Positions 13,850 through 27,946 of a stretch of DNA of 31,773 bases are shown in pieces. This DNA is from Candidatus Parcubacteria bacterium. GTDB taxonomy: Bacteria > Patescibacteriota > Minisyncoccia > Phycocordibacterales > CAIZLB01. The translations under genes and the position numbers were made by a program. Below the pieces are notes generated by a model. It did not search any database, was not told where the DNA came from, and was given only the letters and a program-made list of their open reading frames with translations. The stretch spans positions 1 to 31,773 of the forward strand of contig JBDKKY010000009.1 in assembly GCA_039795875.1 (NCBI GenBank), read 5' to 3'. The first letter of the stretch is position 1. Every line of letters starts with the position of its first letter.

Positions 13850-15640
13850 ATGAATAAACTCAAAACAGCGTGGGATTTTTCCCATATGTATAAGGGGATT
13901 AAGGATCCTAAAATCGAGAAGGATGTGCAAGGGTATGTGCGAGCTTACAAGACTTTTACGGCCAAATATAAAGATAAGAAGTTTGTAAACAGCGTTTCGG
14001 GACTGGCACAGGCGATGAAGGATTGGAACACTCTCCATGAGACCACGTCTCCACGTGCGTTGTGGTATCTGTATTTGGAAGGTCGACGGGATACTGGAAA
14101 CACAGAACTCCAAGCTGAAACCGCTCGGTTGGATGATATGTTTAAGAAAGGGTATAAGGAAATCATCTTTTTCAGCTCGGCTGTTTCAAATATAGAGTCT
14201 AAAAAGCAAGCGGTGTTTTTGAAAGATAAAAGATTGGCACCGTATAGATATGCCTTAAAAGTCATGTTTGCTAAAGGCAAGTACAAATTGTCAGACGCTG
14301 AGGAGAGAATAATGACAGAGAAGGCCACTGTCGCGCACGGTGCCTGGGTTAAGGCCATGACCAAATATCAAAACGCTCAAAAGGTTAAGAAAGGTAAAAA
14401 GTGGATTTCTCTTTCTGAAGCATTGAGCTCTAAGGCCGAACTGCCGCGAGCTGAACGAAGAGCGCTGCACAAAACTGTCATGGAAAAATACAAAGAGATC
14501 AGCTTCCTAGCCGAGGCAGAATTGAATGCGATAGTTCGGAATAGAATAATTGATTGTGACATCAGAGGGTATAAGACTCCTTATGAACCAACGGTCTTAT
14601 CATATCAGAATGACCTAAAGAGTATTGAAAGCCTGGTTGCTGCTGTGACAGCATCAAACCCAATAGCCCACAAATTTTATTCCTTAAAAGCTAAGATTTT
14701 AAATAAAGTAGAAAAAACTGGCGAAAAAAAGATCACCATGGCAGAGTTCGCCACAACTGTTTCTACAACAGAAGGCCAAAGTAAAAATGTTTCCTTTGAA
14801 GAGGCTGCCAAGATCGTCAAAGGTGCACTGGCAGAAGCTAGTCCAGAATTTGGTGACATGTTCCAAACATATTTAGATAATGCTCAACTTGATGTGTTTC
14901 CAAAACAAGGTAAACAGATCGGTGCTTTCTGTTGGGGTATGATAGGGTCAGATCGGACTCGTGTTTTTTTGAATTACTCTGGACGACTGAAAGACATTTC
15001 TACTATTGCTCATGAGATGGGGCACGCTATTCATTGGGATCTAGCCAAAGTACAACCAGCAATGTATCAAGATTTTACGATCTCAGTGGCGGAAGTGGCG
15101 AGTACATTTTTTGAAAATATTTTATTTGATAAATTATTAGAAACAGCTACTGCGGATGAGAAGCGTGATCTGATGTTAAATGACATTCAGGGACGGATTA
15201 ACACCATTCACGCCCAAATTGCCTATTTTCAATTTGAAAAGAAATTGCATGCGGCCGTTCGGGAGCAGGGGTATGTCTCAAAAGAGAATATTGCTAAGAT
15301 GTTTGCAGATTGTCGTCGATCCTATATCGGTGATGCGATTGAGATTACCGAAGACGATGGATATGGATATGTGTATATTTCCCATTTTCGTAGATTCTTT
15401 TATGTGTATTCATATGCGTATGGTCAATTGATTGCCGATGCATTGTATACAGAATATAAGAAAGATAAAAGATTTATTGAAAAAGTAAAAAAGTTTTTGC
15501 GAGCAGGAGGTAGTATGTCGCCAGCTGACATTTTCAAGAGCATTGGTATTGATACGACTAAGCCGGATTTCTTTAAAAAAGGTTTGAAAAAATTGAGTGA
15601 CGATCTAGAGAAGGTGAGTAAGATGGTCCGCCTTCGCTAA
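13850..15640 (+). CDS. pepF: oligoendopeptidase F (M3B zinc metallopeptidase)
   Basis: The 596-aa protein has HEXXH zinc motif IAHEMGHAIH at about residue 387 plus a downstream Glu. Size and layout are typical of PepF. Confidence 0.75.
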   Translation: MNKLKTAWDFSHMYKGIKDPKIEKDVQGYVRAYKTFTAKYKDKKFVNSVSGLAQAMKDWNTLHETTSPRALWYLYLEGRRDTGNTELQAETARLDDMFKKGYKEIIFFSSAVSNIESKKQAVFLKDKRLAPYRYALKVMFAKGKYKLSDAEERIMTEKATVAHGAWVKAMTKYQNAQKVKKGKKWISLSEALSSKAELPRAERRALHKTVMEKYKEISFLAEAELNAIVRNRIIDCDIRGYKTPYEPTVLSYQNDLKSIESLVAAVTASNPIAHKFYSLKAKILNKVEKTGEKKITMAEFATTVSTTEGQSKNVSFEEAAKIVKGALAEASPEFGDMFQTYLDNAQLDVFPKQGKQIGAFCWGMIGSDRTRVFLNYSGRLKDISTIAHEMGHAIHWDLAKVQPAMYQDFTISVAEVASTFFENILFDKLLETATADEKRDLMLNDIQGRINTIHAQIAYFQFEKKLHAAVREQGYVSKENIAKMFADCRRSYIGDAIEITEDDGYGYVYISHFRRFFYVYSYAYGQLIADALYTEYKKDKRFIEKVKKFLRAGGSMSPADIFKSIGIDTTKPDFFKKGLKKLSDDLEKVSKMVRLR

Positions 15641-16158
15641 AGCTTCGACAGGATGAAATAAATTGGATTTCCAGCGTCATCATCGTCATCACCACCGGGG
15701 CCAGCACCGAACAGAGCACCACCCAGACCGCTGAGTAGCATTTCCACGAGGGACACACCGGCGCTTCCGCGATCGCCACCGAAGAGTTCTCCGAGATCTC
15801 CGAGGGGGACCGCGACGAAGCCGGGAGGAGCTGCGCTAGGACCGTTGGCGGGCGCGGCGACCAGTAATCCGTCACCTTTGATCAGGACGCCGGTCGAGGA
15901 GTTCTTGAACTCATCGGGCAGATCGGCCAGGATCATGAGGTTCATAAACCTGTTGCCAGCACTTTCGATCGCGCGGATTTCATTCAGCTCGCGCTGAAGT
16001 GCCGCCTGCGTCGTGTTGTAGTCGCGCCGGGTCTCGCTGGTGTGGCGGGTGAAGGCACGATGTTCACGTTGATTGCGTTGCATCTGTCTGACGATCACGT
16101 TACCGGCCTCGCGCATTGTCTCCAGGAAGAAAAAGGTTTGCCGGTTGTTCGTGCTCAT
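15637..16158 (-). CDS. hypothetical protein, GC-rich; coiled-coil N-terminus, Gly/Ala/Pro-rich C-terminus with poly-Asp tail
   Basis: An ATG at 16158 is preceded by AAGGTGG 8 nt upstream; the track ORF starts at a GTG at 16170. GC is about 58 %. The protein is MSTNNRQTFFFLETMREAG...GPGGDDDDDAGNPIYFILSKL. Confidence 0.45.
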   Translation of the reverse strand: MSTNNRQTFFFLETMREAGNVIVRQMQRNQREHRAFTRHTSETRRDYNTTQAALQRELNEIRAIESAGNRFMNLMILADLPDEFKNSSTGVLIKGDGLLVAAPANGPSAAPPGFVAVPLGDLGELFGGDRGSAGVSLVEMLLSGLGGALFGAGPGGDDDDDAGNPIYFILSKL

Positions 16159-16510
16159 CTGGTCAACCACCTTGTCATTGTGGCCAATAGGTGGTGTGCC
16201 GGGGAGTTGGGCCTTGGGGTCGTACTTGCGGAATAAGGCATTGAGGTTTTTTCATGGGTATGGGTAGTCTATGGGTGTTTGGTTGTGAGCTGCGTATCTC
16301 CCTATGGAGAGAACGAGACGGAAATGTTCGTTACAGCAGACAATTGTCCAGATGAACAACTAGCTGCCGTAACGAACCAGACCTTGTAAAAGTGCGATAG
16401 TGATAATCATAGTATAACTTCCTTATTTTGTCAAATGCCCAATGAATACAGGTTAAATCCCCTAGGAAAAAGGTTTTTTTGATGCCCTACAAACTGTTAT
16501 ACTTATCACC

Positions 16511-16783
16511 ATGAAAACAGTTATTAAAAAGATTGATACACAATGGTTTGATGATATTTCTGCAGGAATTAAAACATGGGAATTACGTCTGGCTGATTTT
16601 GATATTGAAGTTGGAGATATTTTACGGCTGGAAGAATGGATAGGAGAAGGAGAAAATAGAAAACCAACAGGTAGAGTGATTGAAAAAGAAATGACATATG
16701 TACGGAAAGTTGATTTGAAAAAATGGATTGAAACTCAACCAGAATTATTGGAGAAGGGAATGTATATGTTGACGTTTAAATAA
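16511..16783 (+). CDS. ASCH-like DUF3850-family protein
   Basis: The 90-aa protein has KKIDTQWFDDISAGIKTWELRLADFDIEVGDILRLEEW ... KPTGR, matching the DUF3850 pattern (HELK..P.YF..G.KTFE.R.NDRDF.VGD.L.L.E...YTGR). Confidence 0.55.
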   Translation: MKTVIKKIDTQWFDDISAGIKTWELRLADFDIEVGDILRLEEWIGEGENRKPTGRVIEKEMTYVRKVDLKKWIETQPELLEKGMYMLTFK

Positions 16784-16790
16784 ATAAAAA

Positions 16791-16837
16791 CGCTGCAGGA
16801 CCTCGGGTGAGGTCCCACAACGTGGGGGTTTGCAGCG
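16791..16837 (-). terminator. structured terminator for the GC-rich gene 16849..17526
   Basis: The outer stem cgctgca/tgcagcg encloses the hairpin ggacc-tcgggtga-ggtcc. On the minus strand it is followed by TTTTTATTTATTTAAA, directly downstream of the stop at 16849. Confidence 0.55.
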
Positions 16838-16848
16838 TAGCGCGAGGC

Positions 16849-17526
16849 TTACTGCGCGGTGTTTGGGGTGGGAGGGTTGGCGGGTTCAGGAGTGAGGGGT
16901 TCCACCGGTCTAGGGCTGGTCTCTTTGAGGGCTTTGTTCGCGTACTCCAGTACCTGATCGTCGGTCAAGGTAGAAGTGTCGTGGCTGTAGCTGTAGTCAC
17001 TGGAATAAGAGTCGTACTCACCTTTTCCAGCATACACTGTTTCGGTGCGCCAGGGTGAGTATTTGAGTTGGCCATTGTGCACGACCTTTATCAAGTGGGT
17101 TGTTCCCGGCGGAATGTCAAACGTGATGATATCGGAAGTATGTACGACGTACTGCATACCACCAGCATCACTGACGATGACTTGGGGCACAGGCCATTCG
17201 CGGCCGGAAGCAGGGTGGTTGTAATTGCCGGTCATGACAATTCTGACGACCTGCCCCTCTTGAAGGGCGATGATCTGACTCTCAGCTCTCTTCAGGTCAG
17301 CCGTTCGGCTGCTCAGCCATTCGGGTTTCAGAACAATGACGCCGAGGAAAATGGTCAACAGCCACTGTGCTAAGTTGCTGAGCACGAAGAGGGTCGAAGG
17401 TTGAGTGGTGGTGGTATTTTGAGGTGGGTTCACGGTAGTAGTGTGTAGGAGTTGTTTGATTGTGAAGGCCCTATATCTAAGGGTTGGGTATACTATACGT
17501 ATATTACACCACAATGTCAAGTACAC
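16849..17526 (-). CDS. hypothetical membrane-anchored protein, GC-rich, Pro-rich C-terminal tail
   Basis: The track ORF starts at a GTG at 17526, but a consensus promoter overlaps that point, so the true start may be the GTG at 17433 (VNPPQNTTTT...). It has a TM anchor (LFVLSNLAQWLLTIFLGVIVL) and a C-terminal PRPVEPLTPEPANPPTPNTAQ tail. Confidence 0.5.
   Translation of the reverse strand: MYLTLWCNIRIVYPTLRYRAFTIKQLLHTTTVNPPQNTTTTQPSTLFVLSNLAQWLLTIFLGVIVLKPEWLSSRTADLKRAESQIIALQEGQVVRIVMTGNYNHPASGREWPVPQVIVSDAGGMQYVVHTSDIITFDIPPGTTHLIKVVHNGQLKYSPWRTETVYAGKGEYDSYSSDYSYSHDTSTLTDDQVLEYANKALKETSPRPVEPLTPEPANPPTPNTAQ
17492..17520 (-). promoter_or_regulatory. sigma70 consensus promoter TTGACA-17-TATAGT (minus strand)
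   Basis: The plus-strand tgtcaa at 17515-17520 is TTGACA on the minus strand. A 17-nt spacer follows, then TATAGT (plus-strand actata at 17492-17497). Confidence 0.45.
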
Positions 17527-17559
17527 TCAAAAAACATGTCCTGGTGCTATAATCAACTT

Positions 17560-17928
17560 ATGCTCATCACAACTATAGTATTATTCGTCATTGTCCTTAT
17601 GTGTATTCCAACCTTCAAGCGGCTGTATGTGCCGTACGCCAAGGATAATCCAAACAAGCTTTGGTTTAAGAAAAAATTATATGGCTGGGGTTGGACACCG
17701 GTAACTACTCAAGGCTGGACCGTGACCTGGATTTATGTTGCTTTAGTGTTTACATTTGCCTTTACTATTGACGAACAATCTCCATCCAAAGAGGTGTGGT
17801 TTACATTTATTCTACCTGTTGTTCTTTTAACTATCGCATTTGTCCGCATCGCATACACCAAAGGCGAGAAACCAAAATGGCAATGGGGTCCGGAGAAAAA
17901 GCTCGAAGATAAACCAGAAGTAAAATAA
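17560..17928 (+). CDS. small membrane protein (2-3 TM), possibly leaderless
   Basis: An extended -10 box (TGcTATAAT at 17545-17553) ends 7 nt before the ATG at 17560. The protein is MLITTIVLFVIVLMCIP...KLYGWGWTPVTTQGWTVTW.... The upstream part of track ORF 17452.. overlaps the divergent promoter. Confidence 0.5.
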   Translation: MLITTIVLFVIVLMCIPTFKRLYVPYAKDNPNKLWFKKKLYGWGWTPVTTQGWTVTWIYVALVFTFAFTIDEQSPSKEVWFTFILPVVLLTIAFVRIAYTKGEKPKWQWGPEKKLEDKPEVK

Positions 17929-17975
17929 AAAAAACACTCCACGACCGCAGGGGCACGGTCGGGAGGTTGGAGTCT

Positions 17976-18767
17976 TCAAGGGGTTAGCTTAACGGTCGAT
18001 CGAGGCCGCTTGCATATGCCCGGACGGCGCTTCCTCTTCATCCTCGGTTGATCAAGAGGTGTCCAAGGCGTACGACGAGTGGGATTCATGACGGTGCAGG
18101 CCATGTCTTCCCAATGCATTGCATTGAAGATTTTGAATGCGATATCTTTGATAAGCTTGACGCCGGTATCGGACACCACACTGTATGCACGGGTTTTCCC
18201 ATCAACGGAGTTGCACATCACTCGCATCAGTCGATGACGATCGTCATACGGAGTATGCTGTATTAGCACGGCGAACGCCGAACTGATGTGAGTCATAATC
18301 CAGTCAGGGACTTTGTCGAACCCGTACGACGGATCATAAATGATCCGTCGTAAGAAGACCAGGAATTTCCGCCGAGCGTCTCTCATCGTACTAGGCGTCA
18401 CGTCGCTCATGTATGATGGTGCTGTGATGCAACCGACAATCAGTGCCCCGATAAAGTTCAGGTGATTGTCCATGCCGCGCGGCCCACGATGGTCATCAAT
18501 CCAATTTGCGACTCGCTTGAAGGGACGAGGCTCAAGTTCGGCGGCGCAGTACACGCAGAGCCCTTGAACAACTCTGAGCTGCTCCTCCCAAGTGTTGCGA
18601 GGATTCAGGAGAACTCCTCGCAGCACCTTGGGCACGACTTGAGCTGGGTTAGGGTTGAACATGAGTTCCTCCCAGCAATTTCCCAGTTCACGGTCGTGAA
18701 AGGGGATATGCAGGGCGAGGAGGCGGCGTTGTAATGTAGTGTGTTTTGGTTCGTTTGGGGTATTCAT
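17976..18767 (-). CDS. hypothetical protein, GC-rich, with strongly basic NLS-like C-terminus
   Basis: An ATG at 18767 (MNTPNEPKH...) is preceded by AAAAGG. The coding sequence is GC-rich; the upstream part of the track ORF is AT-rich and holds the hairpin cttgctt-tttc-aagcaag. The C-terminus reads PRMKRKRRPGICKRPRSTVK. Confidence 0.5.
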   Translation of the reverse strand: MNTPNEPKHTTLQRRLLALHIPFHDRELGNCWEELMFNPNPAQVVPKVLRGVLLNPRNTWEEQLRVVQGLCVYCAAELEPRPFKRVANWIDDHRGPRGMDNHLNFIGALIVGCITAPSYMSDVTPSTMRDARRKFLVFLRRIIYDPSYGFDKVPDWIMTHISSAFAVLIQHTPYDDRHRLMRVMCNSVDGKTRAYSVVSDTGVKLIKDIAFKIFNAMHWEDMACTVMNPTRRTPWTPLDQPRMKRKRRPGICKRPRSTVKLTP

Positions 18768-18900
18768 AACCTTTTCAGGTAGTCTTGCTTTTTCAAGCAA
18801 GGGGTTGACGGATTTCTCCGTATGCCATACGTTATGGCACGGTTCAACGATATAACTCTTATTATATAAAGTCAAACTAAATATTTGCCATACTATACTC

Positions 18901-19515
18901 ATGACAGCTTTTCTCAAAACTATAAAAATTCTTATCTATGTAGTAGTTTTTTTGGTTATTATTTATTTTGCCCTTAAACTAACTTCATCAACCTCTAAGC
19001 CGAGTACTAAGATCAATCTCGACCAAGCGTCAGTGATCACTGAGATTGAGGCTTTATCCAAACTGGAGACGGCATCGTTTACTATTGAAAAGATTATCGA
19101 AGCAGGTGTACAAGGAAATGCATTTCAGAATATTTTATATGGTGACAAGATTCTTTTGATTGCCCATGCCAATGTTGTCGCTGGATTTGATCTGGCAAAA
19201 TTAAATAAAGAATTGGTGAAAGTAAAAGGAACAAAATTGGAAATTACTCTACCCGCACCAGAAATCCTGTACAGTCGACTCGACAATGATCAAACGCGAG
19301 TGTATGATCGCAAACTTGGATTATTAACAAAAGGAGATGCAGCTCTCGAATCACAAGCCCGAGCAGCAGCCGAACAATCTATAAGAAAAGCAGCCTGCGA
19401 TGGTGGTATTTTACCAATAGCTGCCGAAAATGGTCGAAAACAATTTCAAACAATGTTTGCTTCTGCGGGATTTACAGAAGTGATTGTACTGACTCCAGTT
19501 GGAGAGTGTAAATAA
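18901..19515 (+). CDS. DUF4230-family membrane-anchored protein
   Basis: An N-terminal TM helix is followed by KIIEAG..., KILLIAHANVVAGFDLAKL and TKLEITLPAPEIL, typical of DUF4230. Confidence 0.5.
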   Translation: MTAFLKTIKILIYVVVFLVIIYFALKLTSSTSKPSTKINLDQASVITEIEALSKLETASFTIEKIIEAGVQGNAFQNILYGDKILLIAHANVVAGFDLAKLNKELVKVKGTKLEITLPAPEILYSRLDNDQTRVYDRKLGLLTKGDAALESQARAAAEQSIRKAACDGGILPIAAENGRKQFQTMFASAGFTEVIVLTPVGECK

Positions 19516-19567
19516 AATCCCACCCGTTGACGCTATGAAGCGATCGCGGGGCGGGGGATTTTTTGCG
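19514..19567. terminator. bidirectional Rho-independent terminator
   Basis: The sequence aaaatcccacccg...cggggcgggggatttttt is an imperfect GC-rich hairpin with T-runs on both strands. It lies between the convergent genes 18901..19515 (+) and 19576..19968 (-). Confidence 0.5.
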
Positions 19568-19575
19568 CATTCTGA

Positions 19576-19968
19576 TCATCCACGGAGATAATCCATTTCG
19601 ACTTTCAAGACGGGATAAGCGGCCAGTCCGGGCTCGTACTGAACGGTCACTCGCTGGTAACCGAGGTCTTCACCAGTGTATACATCGCCACCGATGTAGG
19701 GTTCAGTGGGGTGCTCCACTAGGTGGAGAATAGCTCGCCAGCCGAGGCTCTGAAAGTATTCCTCGAGTAAGCGGAGAATGTGGCAAAGAGAGATGATCTC
19801 TTTGCATTCGATGCGCACGACCTCAAAGAGACAGTCGTGAGGGCTCTGATGTTGAAATGGGGCTGGGATGTGCAGTACTCTTAGTCCTCGGGTTCCTAGC
19901 CTGCTGAGCAGGGCGGGTCCTAGTGGTTGGTCTTCTTCAGTGTGCGGTTTTAGGTTAATTTCGGGCAT
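19576..19968 (-). CDS. hypothetical protein, GC-rich
   Basis: The 130-aa ORF has an ATG start and GC above 55 %. I recognise no family. Confidence 0.4.
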   Translation of the reverse strand: MPEINLKPHTEEDQPLGPALLSRLGTRGLRVLHIPAPFQHQSPHDCLFEVVRIECKEIISLCHILRLLEEYFQSLGWRAILHLVEHPTEPYIGGDVYTGEDLGYQRVTVQYEPGLAAYPVLKVEMDYLRG

Positions 19969-20034
19969 TGTTTGGGGTTGTTGGTAAAGGGTTCGTTTGT
20001 AGTATTAAAACATACTTCATGTTGAATAGCAAAA

Positions 20035-20658
20035 TTACGTACGCGGATCACTTTTATCCCATTCGATAATAGTCCCAAGCTTCATCTCCATAGCATCGGC
20101 TTTACGCAAAAGTTGCTCATTTTTCTTCGGAAATAATGAAATCATTTTCATGTCATACATCTTTTCAGCAATATCATATAAATCGTCGTTAGACGTAATC
20201 CATGCTGTACCAAATTTTTTCACGTTGATAGGACCTGCATACCCTCGCAAATCTTTTTTACCATTTTTATCATTGAAGCATTCATGGAAATACGACATGA
20301 CCAATTCGCGTATGGTTTTATAGACCGGATCACGAAAACGCAAAGCCAGATGATTGGTTTTACTGATCGCACCCCAGTATCCATTGCGTTTATAGAGTGT
20401 CACGACATGTCCGACATCACTCGGAACTTTTAGATCCAGCACAAGTGGTTGTTCGCCATTGATCCAGAGTGCTACTGCAGCAAACAGAGCACCTTCAAAA
20501 CAATGGGCTTTCTGGGCTTTAATCACACCCCGAGGAGACATGTTAAAGTCGCCATCTTTTTCCCAATTGATGGCCAAGGCGTCGAGATAATCTTGAATCT
20601 TGATCGGAGTGTTCAATCTCTTAAATATAGACAATTCCGCTTTTGATAAGCCAAGCAT
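20035..20658 (-). CDS. hypothetical protein with candidate Cys/His (papain- or transglutaminase-like) catalytic pair
   Basis: The 207-aa protein has KAHCFEGALFAAVAL (Cys) and DVGHVVTLY (His) in the order and spacing seen in C39/transglutaminase-like folds. The family assignment is tentative. Confidence 0.45.
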   Translation of the reverse strand: MLGLSKAELSIFKRLNTPIKIQDYLDALAINWEKDGDFNMSPRGVIKAQKAHCFEGALFAAVALWINGEQPLVLDLKVPSDVGHVVTLYKRNGYWGAISKTNHLALRFRDPVYKTIRELVMSYFHECFNDKNGKKDLRGYAGPINVKKFGTAWITSNDDLYDIAEKMYDMKMISLFPKKNEQLLRKADAMEMKLGTIIEWDKSDPRT

Positions 20659-20720
20659 ATATATAGTGTATCAATTTACCGTAGAGTAGGGTACTATATG
20701 AAAATAAAATATATACACAT

Positions 20721-21143
20721 ATGCGGAGATCATACACACCAGATAAGTTTAAAGTAATAGTCAAACGATCAAATGCTGGCCTAGGACTATTTGCAGGAGA
20801 TGATATTCCTAAAGGAACTTGTATCATTGAATACAAAGGGCGACAGATCAAAGGACAAGAAGAGTATACTAGTACGAGCAAATACCTTTTTGGAGTACAC
20901 GATCGTTTGACTATAGACGGACGAGAACGGTCAAATACAGCGCGGTATATCAACCACTCATGTCGAGCCAATTGCGAACCGATCAGCTATAAAGCTCGAG
21001 CCTATATATTTGCCAAAAGAAAAATTATGGCTGGTGAAGAATTGACATATGATTATGGAAAGGAATATTGGAATGAACATATCAAGCCTTTGGGCTGTCG
21101 ATGTGTGAAGTGCGTTGAGAGGAAGGCTACTGTTAAGGAGTAG
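20721..21143 (+). CDS. SET-domain protein lysine methyltransferase (minimal, vSET-like size)
   Basis: The 140-aa protein has a SET core with ARYINHSCRANCE (NHSCxPN motif) and ELTYDYG, followed by a Cys-rich post-SET segment (CRCVKC). Confidence 0.75.
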   Translation: MRRSYTPDKFKVIVKRSNAGLGLFAGDDIPKGTCIIEYKGRQIKGQEEYTSTSKYLFGVHDRLTIDGRERSNTARYINHSCRANCEPISYKARAYIFAKRKIMAGEELTYDYGKEYWNEHIKPLGCRCVKCVERKATVKE

Positions 21144-21166
21144 AATTGTGATACACTGGGGCTATT

Positions 21167-21661
21167 ATGGAATTAAAAAGAAGTTTTACGAGAGATGATG
21201 GGGAGACTGTTGAGGTTATATATAACGAAGGTGATCCGACTGCAGACATGGAGGGAAAGGTATTAGGAGGCATACACGCTTTTGCTTTTTATGATGGGAA
21301 AATGGTCTTGGTAAATCATCCCAAAGGTGGGTGGATGCCGCCTGGTGGAGGTAGAGAGGAGAAAGAAACTATCGAAGAGGTTGTAATTCGAGAGGTCCAG
21401 GAAGAAACAAATATGAAAATATTGCATCAAGAGGTAATAGGTTTTCAAGATATTTATCATGACAATAAAATAACCAGACAAACTAGAAACTTTTGCATCG
21501 TAGAACCATATGGAGAATTTGTCGCTGATCCTGATGGCGAAATCATGGAAATGCAATTGATCGATCCAGCAGAATATAAAAAATATTTTGATTGGGGTCC
21601 TATCGGAGATAGAATTATGGAAAGGGCGATGCAGATGTTGGAAGAATATTCTAAAAAATAA
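21167..21661 (+). CDS. NUDIX hydrolase
   Basis: The Nudix box is GGGREEKETIEEVVIREVQEETNM (Gx5Ex7REUxEExGU). It lies 23 nt downstream of the SET gene and is probably co-transcribed. Confidence 0.75.
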   Translation: MELKRSFTRDDGETVEVIYNEGDPTADMEGKVLGGIHAFAFYDGKMVLVNHPKGGWMPPGGGREEKETIEEVVIREVQEETNMKILHQEVIGFQDIYHDNKITRQTRNFCIVEPYGEFVADPDGEIMEMQLIDPAEYKKYFDWGPIGDRIMERAMQMLEEYSKK

Positions 21662-21721
21662 CCCACGTAGGGACCGGGTTAGGGTGTGCATGGGGTTAGA
21701 TTGAGGAGGTGAAGAGCCTGG

Positions 21722-22408
21722 CTAGGCCATGTTGGTGCGGTATTTCTCCAGGATGATTTCCGCTGCTCCTTCGCGAGGAAGAAGTGATGTATCAATCGGG
21801 AAGGCCTCGGGGTGTTGTCTGGCTGGATTGTGCTCGCGGTGGGTGTCTCGGTGATCACGGTCGACGATGCTGTTGAAAATAGCTGTCTTGCTAAACGTGG
21901 TAACGCCGGTGGACTGGAGGTAAGCGAAGTGCCGAGCTGCTTTGACATGCACATCAGTGAAGAGATAGAAACGGTACTTGGTGTTATACACCCAGCATAC
22001 ATCGCGTCCATCTGTCACCAGCGGTCCTTCCTCGCGTTTACGGAGTTGAAATGTCCGGAGAGCTTCGCGCACAGGTAAGTGAACGGCAATCTGAGAAGCA
22101 TGAGCTGCTCCAGCACCAGTGCGGATGCCTTCAGTTTCATCTATTCCATGCAGAATGATGTGGTCGTCGTTTTCTTCAACGCGGAGAGCGAGAGCGATGT
22201 CCCGCAATGCATTGACGTCTTCCAGTACATTCTGACGATGGCCCAGCAATGCCACAGCGCGAAAAAGGGCACCGCTGTCGCAGGTCCGGAATCCAAGTGC
22301 TTTAGCAACCAGTCGCATAGCGGTCGAGGTGCCAGTCCGTGCCAATCCGTCGATTGCGATGACGGGGTGAGTCAGATCTTGAGGGGGAGGTTCAATAAGT
22401 AATCCCAT
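21722..22408 (-). CDS. cmk: cytidylate kinase, GC-rich copy
   Basis: It has the P-loop-like IAIDGLARTGTSTAMRLVAKALGF...DSGALFRAVAL and the DGRD motif (LVTDGRDVCWV) of CMP kinase. GC content is far above the neighbouring genes. Confidence 0.75.
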   Translation of the reverse strand: MGLLIEPPPQDLTHPVIAIDGLARTGTSTAMRLVAKALGFRTCDSGALFRAVALLGHRQNVLEDVNALRDIALALRVEENDDHIILHGIDETEGIRTGAGAAHASQIAVHLPVREALRTFQLRKREEGPLVTDGRDVCWVYNTKYRFYLFTDVHVKAARHFAYLQSTGVTTFSKTAIFNSIVDRDHRDTHREHNPARQHPEAFPIDTSLLPREGAAEIILEKYRTNMA

Positions 22409-22524
22409 AGTTTTGTGGTCGGAAAGGTGAGAATTGCCACGTCCAGAATCAGAGTGATTAAGGAGCGTTTGTGTTATTTGTACAGGAAAATTGAGCTCAG
22501 GTCAATTTGTGTTACTATGAAAAT

Positions 22525-23178
22525 ATGAAAACAGTATACTTAGTTCGTCACGCAGAAAGCCTTGGAAATGTAGGTCCTATTCGACAAGGTCCTGATACAC
22601 CCTTATCAGAGAAGGGTGTTAAACAAGCCAAACTATTGGCGGAACGATTTAAACATATTCATGTTGATAAAGTGTTGGTGAGTCCATTTCTGAGAACAAA
22701 ACAAACTGCTGAGGCAATCGCTGAAGTTTTACAAAAAGAACATGAGTTCAATGATTCTCTAATCGAACGTCTACGACCAAGTAAGGTGATCGGAGTTGAT
22801 AAGAATCATCCAGATTCATTGGAGGTTGATCGTGTGCTGGCAGAGAATTTTCATGATCCAGAGTTTAGGTATTCTGATGAAGAAACTTTTGCTGATTTAA
22901 AGAGGCGGGCATTGTCTGTATTGGATCAATTGAGTAAGTCAGACGCTGAACACATACTTGTTGTAACACATGGTGTATTTTTAAGAATGTTGGCAGCGTG
23001 TGTGGTTTTAGGAGAAGATTTGAATTCCTATGAATATAAAAAATTTCATTCAGGTCTTGCTGTTGCAAATACAGGTATAACGGTTTTCAAACAGGTGATG
23101 CGTCACGGTGAAGAGATTTGGTGTATTGAATCATGGAATGATAGTGCACACTTGGGAGAACTTAGCACGAGTGAATAA
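22525..23178 (+). CDS. histidine phosphatase superfamily (PGAM-like) protein
   Basis: It carries the catalytic RHG-type motif in VYLVRHAESLGN and downstream His (VVTHGVFLRM). I prefer the ATG at 22525 (MKTVYL...); the track ORF begins at 22507. Confidence 0.65.
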   Translation: MKTVYLVRHAESLGNVGPIRQGPDTPLSEKGVKQAKLLAERFKHIHVDKVLVSPFLRTKQTAEAIAEVLQKEHEFNDSLIERLRPSKVIGVDKNHPDSLEVDRVLAENFHDPEFRYSDEETFADLKRRALSVLDQLSKSDAEHILVVTHGVFLRMLAACVVLGEDLNSYEYKKFHSGLAVANTGITVFKQVMRHGEEIWCIESWNDSAHLGELSTSE

Positions 23179-23444
23179 AAATAAATCCGCCAGAAAAATG
23201 TAATACCAAAAGTTCGACAAAACCCTTATACCACAAGGACATTACAGTAATATTAACACTAATGTGAATAGTGTATAACGGGGTTGCTAACCTGGCTCAA
23301 CAGGAACATACTGAAGATGTAGCGTGGATAACCCTCTTGTATCTGTATATGAGAAAGTCCTTTTCTAAAAGAGTTTGGCTACAAACTCGAGATACTAATT
23401 TATTCATTAGTACTTTATTAATTCTAAAAAATTAAAATAACTGT

Positions 23445-26309: not shown

Positions 26310-26338
26310 AAAATACCCTTATAAACAAAGGGTATTTT
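26310..26338 (+). terminator. Rho-independent terminator (aaaataccctt-ataaaca-aagggtatttt)
   Basis: A perfect 11-bp stem and 7-nt loop lie 42 nt after the stop of the TrmB-like gene. Confidence 0.6.
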
Positions 26339-26398
26339 ACGTATACGCCTTTTGTATATTTTGAATTGTAATCTTATATTTTTTTCTGAAAAAATATT

Positions 26399-26433
26399 TT
26401 GACATATTGTACTTTGTTGCAATACTAATCTCA
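26399..26433 (+). promoter_or_regulatory. candidate sigma70 promoter TTGACA-16-AATACT upstream of the SPFH gene
   Basis: A consensus -35 hexamer sits in AT-rich DNA about 135 nt upstream of the GC-rich gene. Confidence 0.35.
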
Positions 26434-26567
26434 GAACGAACTTTGACAGCGAGTGGTATGTAAGACAACTGAACAGAATTCGCGACAGCAATGCATCCGG
26501 ATACGTAGATGGATGCAACGCTGTTTCGAATCATCGACTCAGTAAACCCAAATACAACACGCACTAT

Positions 26568-27875
26568 ATGACTAAATCTAGAATCGTTCTGGCCCTTATC
26601 CTGATCGGGATAATTGCCTTCATCGAGTTCGTTATACTCACTCCTACCGATCAACTCATCAGCCCCAAGATGGGGATCAATCAGGTCAACGGTGATGATC
26701 TTGACGGCTTGAAGCTGCGAAGCTTGCAAGAAGCCAAGAACACCGTCACGTTGATCTGTGGTACGCTCTACGGGCTTGTCGCCCTGTGGCTGTTCAAGCC
26801 GCTGATTTTGCGGCTGTGGAAATCTGGCAACAAAGCACCAGTCACCAATCTGATTCTGATTGGTTTGGCTTCGACCACGATGGTCAGCTGTATGAAGCCG
26901 TACGACAAACCTGAGTACGTCGAGATCAACAACAATGAAACCGCTTTCGTGTTTCCGCTTGAGGGTGACACGAAAGAGCAGGCCAAGTTCCAGAGCAAGG
27001 AACACCTGCAGCAAGCCAAAGTGGCTGCTAAACGTATTCAGATCACGCACCGGTGGAATCAAACCGCCCGTGGCGAAAGCAACGGCGAGTGGATACCTTC
27101 CATTCGTGTGATCAAAGTTGACCGCTCGCCAGTGACTCGTAACTGGCAAGCTGCGGCCGGTGGTGCCCAAACCAAAGGACAAGAGAAAGATACGGCCATC
27201 TGGGTCGAGTCTGCCGACAGCGTCGGCTTCTCCATGGGCTTTGCCTGTACCGCGTATGTGACGGAAGAAGATTCCGCTACGTTTCTGTATTGGTATCCGA
27301 GTGGTAGCCTGGCTATCGTGATGGACACCGAGATCAGGGCTCGCATACAGCAAGGTGCTGCCGAGGTCTCTGCTAAGTACCCGCTGGATATTCTTCGCGG
27401 GAAAAAGCAGGAGATCATAGACAGTATTCGTACTGATGTGACGGTGTTCTTCAAAGAGCGCGGTATCACGATCACCACTGTTGGTATGTTCGGCGGTATG
27501 ACGTACGAAAACACGAAGATACAGGAGGCCATAGACTCCGTCTTCATTGCTCAGCAGGAAAAAGAAAAAGCCAAGGCGGCTTTCGAGGCTCAGGAAAAGC
27601 TGAACGCTACTGTCACGCTGGCGGCGCAAGCTCAAGCTGACAAAAAACGCATCGAGGCTGAAGGTGAAGCCAAAGCCATCGATGCGGTGCAAAAAGCGTT
27701 GCAACAAGCTGGACCTCTGTACATTCAGCGCGAGTTCATTACGCGCTGGGACGGCAAGTTCCCTGAGTACTACCTGGGAGGCGGTGCTGGTGGCCCCTCT
27801 CTGCTCCTCGGAGTTCCTGCTCCGACACCAGGCAAGGTGGAACACTCCACTGAGCCTACCCCTACTAAGAACTGA
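26568..27875 (+). CDS. SPFH/band-7 (HflK/C-, flotillin-like) membrane protein, GC-rich
   Basis: It has an N-terminal TM helix and an SPFH-like core. A Glu/Ala/Lys coiled-coil follows (QQEKEKAKAAFEAQEKLNATVTLAAQAQADKKRIEAEGEAKAI), as in HflK/HflC. The Gly/Pro-rich C-terminus is GC-rich. Confidence 0.6.
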   Translation: MTKSRIVLALILIGIIAFIEFVILTPTDQLISPKMGINQVNGDDLDGLKLRSLQEAKNTVTLICGTLYGLVALWLFKPLILRLWKSGNKAPVTNLILIGLASTTMVSCMKPYDKPEYVEINNNETAFVFPLEGDTKEQAKFQSKEHLQQAKVAAKRIQITHRWNQTARGESNGEWIPSIRVIKVDRSPVTRNWQAAAGGAQTKGQEKDTAIWVESADSVGFSMGFACTAYVTEEDSATFLYWYPSGSLAIVMDTEIRARIQQGAAEVSAKYPLDILRGKKQEIIDSIRTDVTVFFKERGITITTVGMFGGMTYENTKIQEAIDSVFIAQQEKEKAKAAFEAQEKLNATVTLAAQAQADKKRIEAEGEAKAIDAVQKALQQAGPLYIQREFITRWDGKFPEYYLGGGAGGPSLLLGVPAPTPGKVEHSTEPTPTKN

Positions 27876-27911
27876 GGTTCTCTGAGGGAGATGCATTGAG
27901 TGCATCATCGG

Positions 27912-27946
27912 GCGTTCGGTCAGCAATGACCGGACGCTTTTTTATT
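27912..27946 (+). terminator. Rho-independent terminator with GCAA tetraloop
   Basis: The 11-bp stem gcgttcggtca / tgaccggacgc (one G-U pair) and GCAA loop are followed by TTTTTTATTT. Confidence 0.7.

What the first reader, a model, noticed from the sequence alone, without database searches (positions are those of the whole stretch)
20721..21661. Minimal SET-domain lysine methyltransferase co-transcribed with a NUDIX hydrolase
The 140-aa protein has a complete SET catalytic core (NHSCxPN: INHSCRANCE; ELTYDYG) plus a Cys-rich post-SET motif (CRCVKC). That is the size of chlorovirus vSET and of bacterial 'nucleomodulin' SET effectors such as Legionella RomA, Chlamydia NUE and BaSET.

A NUDIX hydrolase with a canonical Nudix box follows 23 nt later, apparently in one operon. 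Prokaryotic SET proteins are rare. They are often secreted effectors that methylate host histones, though some methylate bacterial nucleoid or ribosomal proteins. The SET-NUDIX pairing is not a described module.

Candidate partner genes are on both sides:
- On one side is the papain-like Cys/His protein at 20035-20658, transcribed divergently.
- On the other side is the GC-rich gene at 17976-18767 with an NLS-like tail.
Basis: partly seen in the sequence, partly recalled or inferred. Interest (0 to 1): 0.55.

Follow-up and report, generated by a model that had tools for sequence, protein, structure and literature searches.

The report
CPR SET methyltransferase paired with CPR-C4 protease
The 140-residue gene is a genuine, apparently active SET-domain protein-lysine methyltransferase of a candidate-phyla-radiation bacterium, but its link to the NUDIX gene is a local accident, and the partner conserved across relatives is the divergently transcribed vasohibin-like protease CPR-C4.

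Summary
Window 20721-21143(+) encodes a 140-aa SET protein (Pfam PF00856, E 1.2e-23). All catalytic motifs and a four-Cys post-SET zinc set are invariant in 59 homologues. A NUDIX gene follows 23 nt later.

The window is a Candidatus Parcubacteria contig. Small SET proteins are not rare in this lineage: more than 3,300 homologues were found.

The proposed SET-NUDIX module is not supported.
- None of 51 other SET loci has a co-directional NUDIX.
- Three loci carrying NUDIX orthologues lack SET and instead sit next to nucleotide kinases.
- In the closest relatives SET is followed by the peptidoglycan-binding gene. NUDIX, cytidylate kinase and the histidine phosphatase form a 2.2-kb window-specific block.

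The "papain-like" neighbour (20035-20658, minus strand) is a CPR-C4 homologue (PDB 7OB6, E 2e-50) with the Cys53-His84-Leu106 triad. CPR-C4 lies within 1 kb of SET in 31 of those 51 loci, mostly divergent but tandem in one clade, with changing outer flanks. A SWIB-domain gene lies nearby in 15 of them.

The GC-rich "NLS-tail" gene is a near-ORFan inside another window-specific insertion.

Best reading: a cytoplasmic methyltransferase functionally coupled to CPR-C4. The substrate is unknown; my leading guess is a nucleoid-associated protein.

The parts
20721..21143 (+). SET-domain protein-lysine methyltransferase gene (140 aa; stop included)
   Evidence: Pfam PF00856 E 1.2e-23. 100% identical to NCBI protein RJB39_394 of a Candidatus Parcubacteria MAG. 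AF2 model has pLDDT 74.6; best PDB matches are the MLL1/3/4 SET domains.
20778..20789 (+). GLGL (residues 20-23), the GxG AdoMet-binding motif of the SET-N region
   Evidence: Invariant in 59 homologues (A4). Aligns to QGLGLY of KMT2D/2C.
20952..20963 (+). NHSC (residues 78-81): the N-H cofactor/pseudoknot motif, plus Cys81 as the first zinc ligand
   Evidence: N78, H79 and C81 are invariant. Aligns to RYINHSC of KMT2 proteins.
21039..21056 (+). ELTYDY (residues 107-112): Tyr110 at the Phe/Tyr-switch position and catalytic Tyr112
   Evidence: E107 and Y112 are invariant; Y110 and D111 are conserved in at least 90%. Aligns to EELTYDY of KMT2D.
21096..21113 (+). Post-SET motif C126-R-C128-V-K-C131 (CxCx2C)
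   Evidence: C126, C128 and C131 are invariant in 59 homologues. Aligns to the post-SET CxCx4C of KMT2 proteins.
20659..20720 (.). 62-nt divergent intergenic region shared by CPR-C4 and SET, read as back-to-back promoters. It holds TGATACACT at 20665-20673 on the minus strand and TACTAT on the plus strand.
   Evidence: Sequence. Short divergent spacers (25-95 nt in most loci) carry -10-like boxes on both sides in relatives. The exact 9-mer occurs only twice in the window.
20035..20658 (-). CPR-C4 homologue: vasohibin-like cysteine protease, 207 aa, with catalytic Cys53, His84 and Leu106
   Evidence: phmmer against PDB 7OB6/7OB7/7PJO 'CPR-C4', E 2e-50 over residues 5-202. The triad C61-H93-L115 from the paper aligns to C53-H84-L106. 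H52, C53 and H84 are invariant in 20 homologues. Conserved neighbour of SET.
21167..21661 (+). NUDIX hydrolase (164 aa; Nudix box at residues 61-83, window 21347-21415). It is physically adjacent to SET but is not a conserved partner.
   Evidence: Pfam PF00293 E 7.8e-12. No subfamily assignment. Orthologues elsewhere lie beside nucleotide kinases, not SET.
21149..21157 (+). TGATACACT, an extended -10-like element 9 nt upstream of the NUDIX start. It is a possible promoter for NUDIX inside the 23-nt spacer.
   Evidence: This is the second of only two exact copies in the window; the other precedes CPR-C4. It is a consensus-type match only.
21129..23354 (.). Window-specific 2.2-kb block (NUDIX, cytidylate kinase 21722-22408 on the minus strand, His_Phos_1 22507-23178 on the plus strand) between SET and the peptidoglycan-binding gene
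   Evidence: blastn against L001 and L002: collinearity stops at 21128 and resumes at 23355. L002 has 213 nt at this position and L001 has 785 nt with no long ORF.

Best explanation
The gene encodes a cytoplasmic, catalytically competent, stand-alone SET-domain protein-lysine methyltransferase. It belongs to a very large family in Parcubacteria/Paceibacteria (CPR).

Its core resembles the KMT2/MLL SET plus post-SET unit: an AdoMet pocket (GxG, RYxNH), catalytic Tyr112, and Tyr110 at the Phe/Tyr-switch position. By analogy with MLL1, that Tyr predicts mono- or di-methylation. Cys81, Cys126, Cys128 and Cys131 are predicted to form a four-Cys zinc site that closes the lysine channel.

Its conserved partner is not NUDIX. 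It is the divergently transcribed CPR-C4 vasohibin-like cysteine protease, whose start codon lies 62 nt from the SET start. In many relatives a small SWIB-domain protein is also nearby.

I propose that SET and CPR-C4 are co-regulated from back-to-back promoters and act in one pathway on an endogenous protein. The leading candidate target is a nucleoid-associated protein such as the SWIB protein or an HU/histone-like protein. A ribosome- or translation-associated protein is the close second.

The SET-NUDIX juxtaposition arose when a nucleotide-metabolism block (NUDIX, cytidylate kinase, histidine phosphatase) came to lie downstream of SET in this lineage only.

Shown here: domain identities, motif conservation, the gene-neighbourhood statistics and the synteny break. 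Inferred: enzymatic activity, co-regulation, a shared pathway and the substrate class.
For: SET identity and competence:
- Pfam E 1.2e-23.
- G20-L-G22, Y55, N72, Y76, N78, H79, C81, N84, E107, Y112, C126, C128 and C131 are invariant in 59 homologues at 59-83% identity.
- PDB sequence hits to KMT2D/2C/2A SET at E about 1e-16.
- AF2 model with pLDDT 74.6 and pTM 0.68; top Foldseek hits are MLL1/3/4, then GLP/G9a and SET8.

Cytoplasmic location:
- SET, CPR-C4 and NUDIX have no hydrophobic segment (maximum KD19 of 0.62, 1.28 and 1.01). The DUF4230 and PG-binding neighbours score 2.68 and 2.23.

CPR-C4 identity:
- E 2e-50 to PDB 7OB6, with the triad aligned.

Linkage between SET and CPR-C4:
- In SET-centred loci, CPR-C4 lies within 700 nt in 12 of 32. 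No other neighbour family recurs more than 3 times.
- In CPR-C4-centred metagenome loci, SET is the commonest neighbour: 19 of 80, or about one third of loci with room on both sides.
- Over all 97 CPR-C4 loci, 32 (the window included) have SET within 1 kb: 28 divergent and 4 tandem.
- The outer flanks differ in at least 8 ways.
- The divergent arrangement is scattered over the CPR-C4 tree.
- The C4+SET block is the best-conserved DNA segment against the closest relatives (74-77% identity).

SWIB:
- Pfam E 5e-33.
- Within 3 kb of SET in 15 of the 51 other SET loci, in both convergent and tandem orientations.
- Published precedent: SET and SWIB co-occur in Chlamydiae, where the small SWIB protein binds along the whole genome and cpnSET methylates Hc1 (PMC6426960; PMC3980110).

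NUDIX unlinked.
Against: - No biochemical data exist for any member of this CPR SET family, so activity and substrate are inferred.
- The pairing is confined to the SET subclade at or above about 60% identity to the query: 12 adjacent plus 1 near out of 17. None of 15 more distant SET loci has it. About two thirds of CPR-C4 loci lack SET nearby, so neither enzyme strictly needs the other in cis.
- The NJ tree of a 200-aa protein is noisy. Inheritance from a common ancestor explains part of the recurrence, and a few loci are near-duplicates (L052/L054, L065/L075).
- The window itself has no SWIB gene in 31.7 kb.
- In other clades CPR-C4 sits in a tight operon with an ArfB-like RF-1-domain gene (9 loci). 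That points to translation rather than the nucleoid.
- The published CPR-C4 structure has a positively charged pocket, implying an acidic substrate. That does not obviously fit a Lys-rich target.
- The SET-I region of the model has low confidence (pLDDT about 51-56 for residues 41-70), so nothing can be said about the substrate groove.
Confidence: 0.5

Rival explanations
1. SET and NUDIX form a functional two-gene operon. For example, NUDIX would clear a nucleotide by-product or regulate the methyltransferase.
For: The genes share a strand, are 23 nt apart, and have no terminator-like site between them. One relative (L013) has a NUDIX gene touching SET.
Against: - No co-directional NUDIX sits beside SET in 51 other SET loci. 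The L013 gene is convergent and is not an orthologue.
- NUDIX orthologues at 62-67% identity lie beside thymidylate kinase or an AAA_18 kinase and His_Phos_1, never SET.
- The closest relatives (SET 79-85% identical) have the PG-binding gene after SET. The NUDIX-Cmk-HisPhos block is window-specific.
- An extended -10-like TGATACACT lies inside the spacer, so NUDIX may have its own promoter.
Confidence: 0.04
2. The SET protein is a secreted 'nucleomodulin' effector that methylates histones of a eukaryotic host, like Legionella RomA/LegAS4, Chlamydia NUE or Bacillus BaSET.
For: - It is 36-40% identical to KMT2 histone H3K4 methyltransferase SET domains.
- There is a domain-level hit to the LegAS4 model.
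- CPR bacteria are symbionts, and characterised bacterial SETs are often effectors (PMC3980110).
- Net charge is +11.
Against: - No signal peptide or hydrophobic segment. No accessory targeting domains. LegAS4 model score is 43.5 bits against a cut-off of 550.
- The family is present in thousands of environmental Paceibacteria.
- It is stably linked to CPR-C4 and to SWIB. CPR-C4 likewise has no hydrophobic segment; SWIB was not scanned for one.
- From general knowledge, most known CPR hosts are prokaryotes, and T3SS or Dot/Icm systems are not a CPR feature. This was not tested here.
Confidence: 0.1
3. SET methylates a component of the translation machinery (a ribosomal protein or elongation/release factor), and CPR-C4 acts on ribosome-associated or nascent polypeptides.
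For: - CPR-C4 is followed, at a 4-10 nt gap on the same strand, by an ArfB-like RF-1-domain gene in 7 loci, and at 138 and 499 nt in 2 more.
- The SWIB neighbour is often followed by a DEAD-box helicase and a cold-shock protein.
- FtsJ and S30AE genes lie near SET in L118 and L119.
- From general knowledge, eukaryotic SET-domain enzymes methylate ribosomal proteins and eEF1A.
Against: The ArfB link occurs in clades where SET is not adjacent, so it bears on CPR-C4 rather than on SET. The other neighbours are common housekeeping genes with variable positions. There is no direct evidence.
Confidence: 0.22

Closest known systems
KMT2/MLL (SET1-family) catalytic SET plus post-SET domains, e.g. MLL1 (2W5Y), MLL3 (5F59), MLL4 (4Z4P)
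   Same: These are the best sequence and structure matches: E about 1e-16, 36-40% identity, Foldseek E about 3e-8. The GxG, RYINHSC and EELTYDY motifs are shared, including Tyr at the Phe/Tyr-switch position, as is a Cys-rich post-SET.
   Different: - The window protein is only 140 aa with no flanking domains.
- Its SET-I region is about 8 residues shorter.
- Post-SET spacing is CxCx2C rather than CxCx4C.
- No WDR5/RbBP5/ASH2L partners are expected in a bacterium.
- It is a bacterial family of thousands, not an orthologue of KMT2.
Chlamydial SET proteins (cpnSET, NUE/CT737) together with chlamydial SWIB-domain proteins
   Same: Both are bacterial stand-alone SET proteins in genomes that also carry a small SWIB-only protein. 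cpnSET interacts with and methylates the histone-like protein Hc1, and the Waddlia SWIB protein binds along the whole chromosome. In CPR relatives SET and SWIB are physically adjacent.
   Different: NUE is a T3SS effector with an NLS that methylates host histones. Here there is no secretion signal, no SWIB gene in this window, and the additional conserved partner CPR-C4 has not been described for Chlamydiae.
Go1-SET of Methanosarcina mazei
   Same: It is a small prokaryotic stand-alone SET that methylates an endogenous chromatin protein, MC1-alpha (PMC3980110). It is the functional model favoured here.
   Different: It is archaeal, and no CPR-C4 or SWIB context has been reported. Its sequence relationship to the window protein was not measured here.
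Chlorovirus vSET and other viral minimal SET proteins
   Same: Similar size and the same fold. Foldseek against BFVD gives E 1e-6 to 1e-5, including a 116-aa protein (M1IDW8) with TM 0.74 normalised to the target.
   Different: Identity is only 15-29%. From general knowledge, vSET lacks the post-SET zinc motif and works as a dimer on H3K27.
CPR-C4 (PDB 7OB6) and human vasohibins VASH1/2, as the closest known to the partner gene
   Same: The window ORF at 20035-20658 matches CPR-C4 at E 2e-50 and keeps the Cys-His-Leu(carbonyl) triad.
   Different: The published CPR-C4 gene has ABC-transporter neighbours, and its authors found no functional clue in gene context. Here and in about a third of relatives it is paired with SET. 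Vasohibins need SVBP and act on the tubulin tail, which bacteria lack.

Membership tests
SET-domain protein-lysine methyltransferases (Pfam PF00856) | Profile match above the curated threshold over the whole domain | tested here: met
   E 1.2e-23, 84 bits against a cut-off of 22.4; model positions 1-105 of 105.
SET-domain protein-lysine methyltransferases (Pfam PF00856) | AdoMet-binding and catalytic motifs: GxG, (R)YxNHxC, ELx[F/Y]DY with the terminal catalytic Tyr | tested here: met
   G20/G22, Y76, N78, H79, C81, E107 and Y112 are present and invariant in 59 homologues. They align to the same motifs in KMT2D/2C.
SET-domain protein-lysine methyltransferases (Pfam PF00856) | SET beta-fold (predicted structure superposes on solved SET domains) | tested here: met
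   AF2 pLDDT 74.6. 354 PDB matches at E<=1e-3; the 50 best listed are all SET domains, with TM 0.56-0.72. The SET-I segment has low confidence.
SET-domain protein-lysine methyltransferases (Pfam PF00856) | AdoMet-dependent lysine methyl transfer | not testable with these tools
   Needs an enzyme assay.
SET with post-SET zinc cluster (SUV39/SET1/SET2 type) | One Cys in NHxC plus three post-SET Cys that form a Zn site | tested here: met
   C81, C126, C128 and C131 are all invariant. The spacing is CxCx2C, shorter than the CxCx4C of KMT2. Zinc binding itself was not tested.
vSET-like viral minimal SET | Close sequence relationship to chlorovirus vSET and absence of a post-SET motif | tested here: not met
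   Viral SET models match at only 15-29% identity, and this protein has a conserved post-SET Cys motif.
Secreted SET nucleomodulins (LegAS4/RomA, NUE, BaSET) | Full-length match to an effector family, including its accessory or targeting regions | tested here: not met
   NCBIfam T4SS_AnkI/LegAS4 scores 43.5 bits against a cut-off of 550, covering the SET region only.
Secreted SET nucleomodulins (LegAS4/RomA, NUE, BaSET) | Secretion (T3SS/T4SS signal) and action on host histones | not testable with these tools
   No Sec-type hydrophobic N-terminus. Effector signals and host identity cannot be assessed here.
CPR-C4 / vasohibin-like cysteine proteases (for ORF 20035-20658) | Sequence homology to CPR-C4 plus the Cys-His-Leu(carbonyl) triad | tested here: met
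   E 2e-50 to 7OB6 over residues 5-202. C53, H84 and L106 align with C61, H93 and L115. C53 and H84 are invariant in 20 homologues.
NUDIX hydrolases (for ORF 21167-21661) | Pfam match and Nudix box GX5EX7REUXEEXGU | tested here: met
   PF00293 E 7.8e-12. The box spans residues 61-83, with REVQEE intact and the final Gly replaced by Asn82. No equivalog reaches its cut-off.
Proposed 'SET-NUDIX module' | Adjacency conserved in related genomes | tested here: not met
   No co-directional NUDIX in 51 other SET loci, one convergent non-orthologous NUDIX (L013), and no SET in three NUDIX-orthologue loci. The block is absent in the closest relatives.
Proposed 'SET / CPR-C4 gene pair' | Adjacency conserved beyond local synteny, from both directions | tested here: met
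   12 of 32 SET-centred loci and 19 of 80 C4-centred loci. Each gene is the other's commonest neighbour. There are two arrangements, variable flanks and a scattered distribution on the C4 tree. The pair is limited to the SET subclade at or above about 60% identity.

The most novel reading that the evidence does not exclude
SET, the vasohibin-like protease CPR-C4 and, in many lineages, a SWIB-domain protein form a conserved bacterial protein-modification module. Lysine methylation and proteolytic trimming would converge on one abundant nucleoid- or ribosome-associated protein. This would be a prokaryotic counterpart of eukaryotic tail 'codes' (SET on histones, vasohibin on tubulin). It would also give the first physiological context for CPR-C4, whose substrate is unknown.
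Probability: 0.2. Interest if true: 0.7.

Novelty: new member of a known kind. Interest (0 to 1): 0.4.

Why it matters
The SET enzyme itself is one more member of a well-known superfamily, and public annotation already labels it as such. Two results matter.

- A tempting "new operon" (SET-NUDIX) is shown to be a lineage-specific accident.
- The real conserved partner is CPR-C4. This protease has been crystallised and shown to be active, but its authors stated that gene context offered no functional clue.

The recurrent SET/CPR-C4 pairing, with SWIB nearby and a C4-ArfB operon in other clades, gives concrete candidates for substrate and pathway experiments. These organisms cannot be cultured. 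I found no paper linking SET proteins to CPR bacteria or to vasohibin-like proteases.

Tried and rejected
- **SET-NUDIX as a conserved module: rejected.** I used tblastn of window proteins against 34 genome loci, a Nudix-box regex and an ad-hoc HMM over all loci, Pfam on every gene just downstream of SET (A1), and contexts of three NUDIX orthologues.
- **Other upstream partners in SET loci without CPR-C4:** heterogeneous. SAM methyltransferases occur 3 times and glycosyltransferases twice.
- **GC-rich ORF313 as a partner: rejected.** It has no Pfam, NCBIfam, PADLOC or PHROG hit. It has two representatives in 1.84 billion proteins, and the only relative sits on a 1.4-kb contig.
- **Defence-system or phage origin for SET and CPR-C4:** no PADLOC or PHROG hits.
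- **Structured RNA or tRNA in the region:** none found with Rfam at gathering thresholds or with ARAGORN.
- **Terminator between SET and NUDIX:** none found, but the scan is no richer than shuffled sequence.
- **NUDIX subfamily assignment: failed.** The best equivalog, YtkD, scores 36.8 bits against a cut-off of 154. The best PDB hit is an Ap4A hydrolase at E 1.6e-6.
- **GC-rich ORFs as one mobile family:** they share no similarity with one another.
Full report
**What is in the sequence**

The window is identical to a 31,773-bp contig of a Candidatus Parcubacteria (CPR) metagenome-assembled genome. The SET, CPR-C4 and NUDIX proteins are 100% identical to NCBI proteins RJB39_394, _393 and _395.

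ORF 20721-21143(+) encodes 140 aa and matches Pfam SET PF00856 end to end (E 1.2e-23). ORF 21167-21661(+) encodes a 164-aa NUDIX protein (E 7.8e-12). The two are separated by 23 nt with no terminator-like site. The Nudix box (residues 61-83) is canonical except that the last consensus Gly is Asn82.

**Is the SET protein a competent enzyme?**

An alignment of 59 homologues at 59-83% identity shows these residues as invariant: G20-L-G22-L, I36-E-Y38, Y55, T64-I-D-G67, N72, Y76, N78, H79, C81, N84, E107, Y112, C126, C128 and C131. Y110 and D111 are conserved in at least 90%.

Against solved structures these align with the QGLGLY, RYINHSC and EELTYDY motifs and the post-SET Cys cluster of KMT2D, KMT2C and MLL1 (E about 1e-16).

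An AlphaFold2 model (pLDDT 74.6, pTM 0.68; the SET-I segment has low confidence) retrieves MLL1, MLL3 and MLL4 first at 36-40% identity, then GLP/G9a and SET8. Viral SET proteins match the fold at only 15-29% identity.

From established knowledge of SET enzymes:
- The last Tyr of ELx[F/Y]DY is catalytic.
- The residue two positions before it is the Phe/Tyr switch. Here it is Tyr, as in MLL1, which suggests a mono- or di-methyltransferase.
- The NHSC Cys plus three post-SET Cys bind zinc.

The protein is thus a minimal MLL-like SET plus post-SET unit with CxCx2C spacing. It is not a vSET-like protein.

It has no hydrophobic segment, unlike the DUF4230 and PG-binding neighbours used as positive controls, and it carries a net charge of +11.

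**SET proteins are not rare here**

The search returned 3,369 homologues, nearly all 132-171 aa and from Parcubacteria/Paceibacterota. Some are already annotated 'SET domain-containing protein'.

**The SET-NUDIX module fails from both sides**

From the SET side:
- In 34 genome loci holding SET relatives, the window's NUDIX has no counterpart.
- Pfam on the gene immediately downstream of SET finds a heterogeneous set. Only one is a NUDIX (L013), and it is convergent and not an orthologue.
- A Nudix-box regex and an HMM over 114 loci find only that gene and one more, 2.6 kb away.
- Across 52 SET loci at or above 45% identity, the window is the only one with NUDIX within 3 kb by tblastn.

From the NUDIX side:
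- The protein belongs to a conserved Parcubacteria NUDIX family.
- Three orthologues at 62-67% identity lie beside thymidylate kinase, an AAA_18 kinase and a His_Phos_1 gene, with no SET.

From synteny:
- blastn against the closest relatives (L001 and L002; SET 85% and 79% identical) shows collinearity through DUF4230, CPR-C4 and SET up to window position 21128.
- Collinearity resumes at 23355 with the peptidoglycan-binding gene.
- L002 has 213 nt in place of the 2.2-kb NUDIX/cytidylate-kinase/His_Phos_1 block.

The block looks like a nucleotide-metabolism cluster that came to lie next to SET in this lineage only. An exact TGATACACT (extended -10-like) occurs just twice in the window: 7 nt upstream of the CPR-C4 start and 9 nt upstream of the NUDIX start. 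NUDIX may therefore have its own promoter. This is a consensus match, not proof.

**The real conserved neighbour is CPR-C4**

ORF 20035-20658(-) has no Pfam or NCBIfam hit. It matches the crystal-structure protein CPR-C4 (7OB6, 7OB7, 7PJO) at E 2e-50 over residues 5-202.

CPR-C4 is a vasohibin-like cysteine protease with a Cys61-His93-Leu115(carbonyl) triad, shown to cleave labelled casein (PMC9108980). The triad aligns with Cys53, His84 and Leu106 here, and H52, C53 and H84 are invariant in 20 homologues. The family is large, with 4,780 homologues.

The CPR-C4 authors stated that the gene's neighbours gave no clue to its function.

**Linkage statistics**

- SET-centred loci, which are unbiased with respect to CPR-C4: CPR-C4 lies within 700 nt in 12 of 32, and 1.6 kb away in one more. 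No other neighbour family recurs more than three times.
- CPR-C4-centred metagenome loci: SET lies within 1 kb in 19 of 80 (15 divergent, 4 tandem), against 37 loci that have room on both sides but no SET. SET is the commonest neighbour.
- All 97 CPR-C4 loci, the window included: 32 have SET nearby, 28 divergent and 4 tandem.
- The outer flanks differ in at least eight ways.
- The divergent arrangement is scattered over a neighbour-joining tree of CPR-C4 rather than confined to one clade. The tandem arrangement, with a cupin gene in between, marks one clade.
- The C4+SET segment is the most conserved DNA in the comparison with L001 and L002.
- Divergent spacers are mostly 25-95 nt and carry -10-like boxes close to both start codons. 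This fits back-to-back promoters.

There are limits. The pairing is confined to the SET subclade at or above about 60% identity to the query; 0 of 15 more distant SET loci have it. Two thirds of CPR-C4 loci lack SET. A few loci are near-duplicates, and shared ancestry inflates the counts.

**A third recurrent gene: SWIB**

An 82-86-aa SWIB/MDM2-domain gene (Pfam E 5e-33) lies within 3 kb of SET in 15 of the 51 other SET loci, either convergent or tandem. Its product is more than 80% identical across most of these loci. The window has none.

Literature on Chlamydiae already notes that SET and SWIB co-occur there. The small SWIB protein of Waddlia binds along the whole chromosome, and cpnSET interacts with and methylates the histone-like protein Hc1. 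Go1-SET of Methanosarcina methylates the chromatin protein MC1-alpha.

**Mechanism proposed**

Shown: a complete SET catalytic core, a CPR-C4 protease with an intact triad, and their conserved, mostly divergent pairing.

Inferred: the two genes are co-regulated and act in one pathway on an endogenous cytoplasmic protein. My leading candidate is a nucleoid-associated protein (SWIB or HU-like), based on the SWIB link and the chlamydial and archaeal precedents.

The close rival is a translation-associated target. In other clades CPR-C4 is followed at 4-10 nt by an ArfB-like RF-1-domain gene.

The effector hypothesis has no positive support but cannot be excluded computationally.

**The other candidate partner**

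The GC-rich ORF at 17976-18917(-) lies in a 3.4-kb window-specific insertion (15595-19017). It has no family match. Among 1.84 billion representative proteins it has just two: itself, called as 165 aa, and one 49%-identical protein on a 1.4-kb contig. It is not a conserved partner of SET.

**Novelty and verdict**

The SET protein is a new member of a known kind and is ordinary as an enzyme class. The proposed SET-NUDIX module is not real. The conserved SET/CPR-C4 (and SWIB) neighbourhood appears undescribed: searches for SET with CPR, Parcubacteria or vasohibin found nothing relevant. It is the useful lead to come out of this finding. I score interest at 0.4.

Noticed in passing
window 15595-19017, 19516-20052 and 21129-23354: There are three window-specific insertions relative to the closest relatives L001 and L002. 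They carry GC-rich ORFs: 15637-16170 (GC 0.58), 16849-17526 (0.52), 17976-18917 (0.50), 19576-19968 (0.53) and cytidylate kinase 21722-22408 (0.54). Surrounding genes have GC 0.32-0.43. The GC-rich ORFs without family hits are unrelated to one another and were absent from all loci fetched up to that point. Only ORF313 was searched more widely.
   Followed up: partly
window 20665-20673 (-) and 21149-21157 (+): The exact 9-mer TGATACACT occurs only twice in the window, 7 nt upstream of the CPR-C4 start and 9 nt upstream of the NUDIX start. At up to 1 mismatch there are 17 matches against 8.0 +/- 2.8 in shuffles. The copy upstream of CPR-C4 is conserved in L001-L003. It may be an extended -10 element giving near-leaderless transcripts.
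   Followed up: partly
L037, L041, L058, L066, L070, L078, L090, L123, L124: In another set of CPR lineages, including a Magasanikbacteria contig, CPR-C4 is followed on the same strand by an ArfB-like RF-1-domain gene. The gap is 4-10 nt in 7 loci and 138 or 499 nt in the other 2. This looks like an operon and hints at a role for CPR-C4 in ribosome rescue or nascent-chain handling.
   Followed up: partly
L005-L009, L043, L052, L054, L064, L065, L075, L076, L095, L098, L120, L121 (e.g. L008:7106-7366): A highly conserved 82-86-aa SWIB/MDM2-domain gene lies next to SET. It is often followed by a DEAD-box helicase and a cold-shock protein gene. It also lies beside CPR-C4 without SET in L073 and L077.
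   Followed up: partly
L057, L061, L072, L092, L085, L086, L105, L109, L110: In one CPR-C4 clade an unknown 190-210-aa gene ('c7', no Pfam hit) sits just upstream on the same strand. A cupin gene lies downstream of CPR-C4 in L057, L105 and L110. In L057 the order is c7, C4, cupin, SET on one strand, and SET is also tandem downstream of CPR-C4 in L061, L072 and L092.
   Followed up: no
L001 6430-7300: In the closest relative, a stretch of about 870 nt between SET and the PG-binding gene has no ORF longer than 56 aa and no Rfam hit. It may be a decayed gene or an unrecognised non-coding element at the site where the window carries the NUDIX block.
   Followed up: partly
window 26337-27926 (-) / 26568-27875 (+): Two long ORFs overlap on opposite strands in a GC-rich stretch (GC 0.51-0.53). 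Only the plus-strand one has a hit, and it is weak (Band_7/SPFH, E 1.6e-5). Which strand is coding is unresolved.
   Followed up: no
L023 5213-5563 (-) and 6001-6384 (+): A second, divergent SET-like ORF (29% identity to the query, E 2.8e-10) lies just upstream of the main SET gene in this locus, so this genome has two adjacent SET paralogues.
   Followed up: no
L015, L017, L019: SET relatives at 52-58% identity sit on contigs binned as Bradyrhizobiaceae or Caulobacteraceae MAGs. This could be mis-binning of CPR contigs or horizontal transfer. It was not examined.
   Followed up: no
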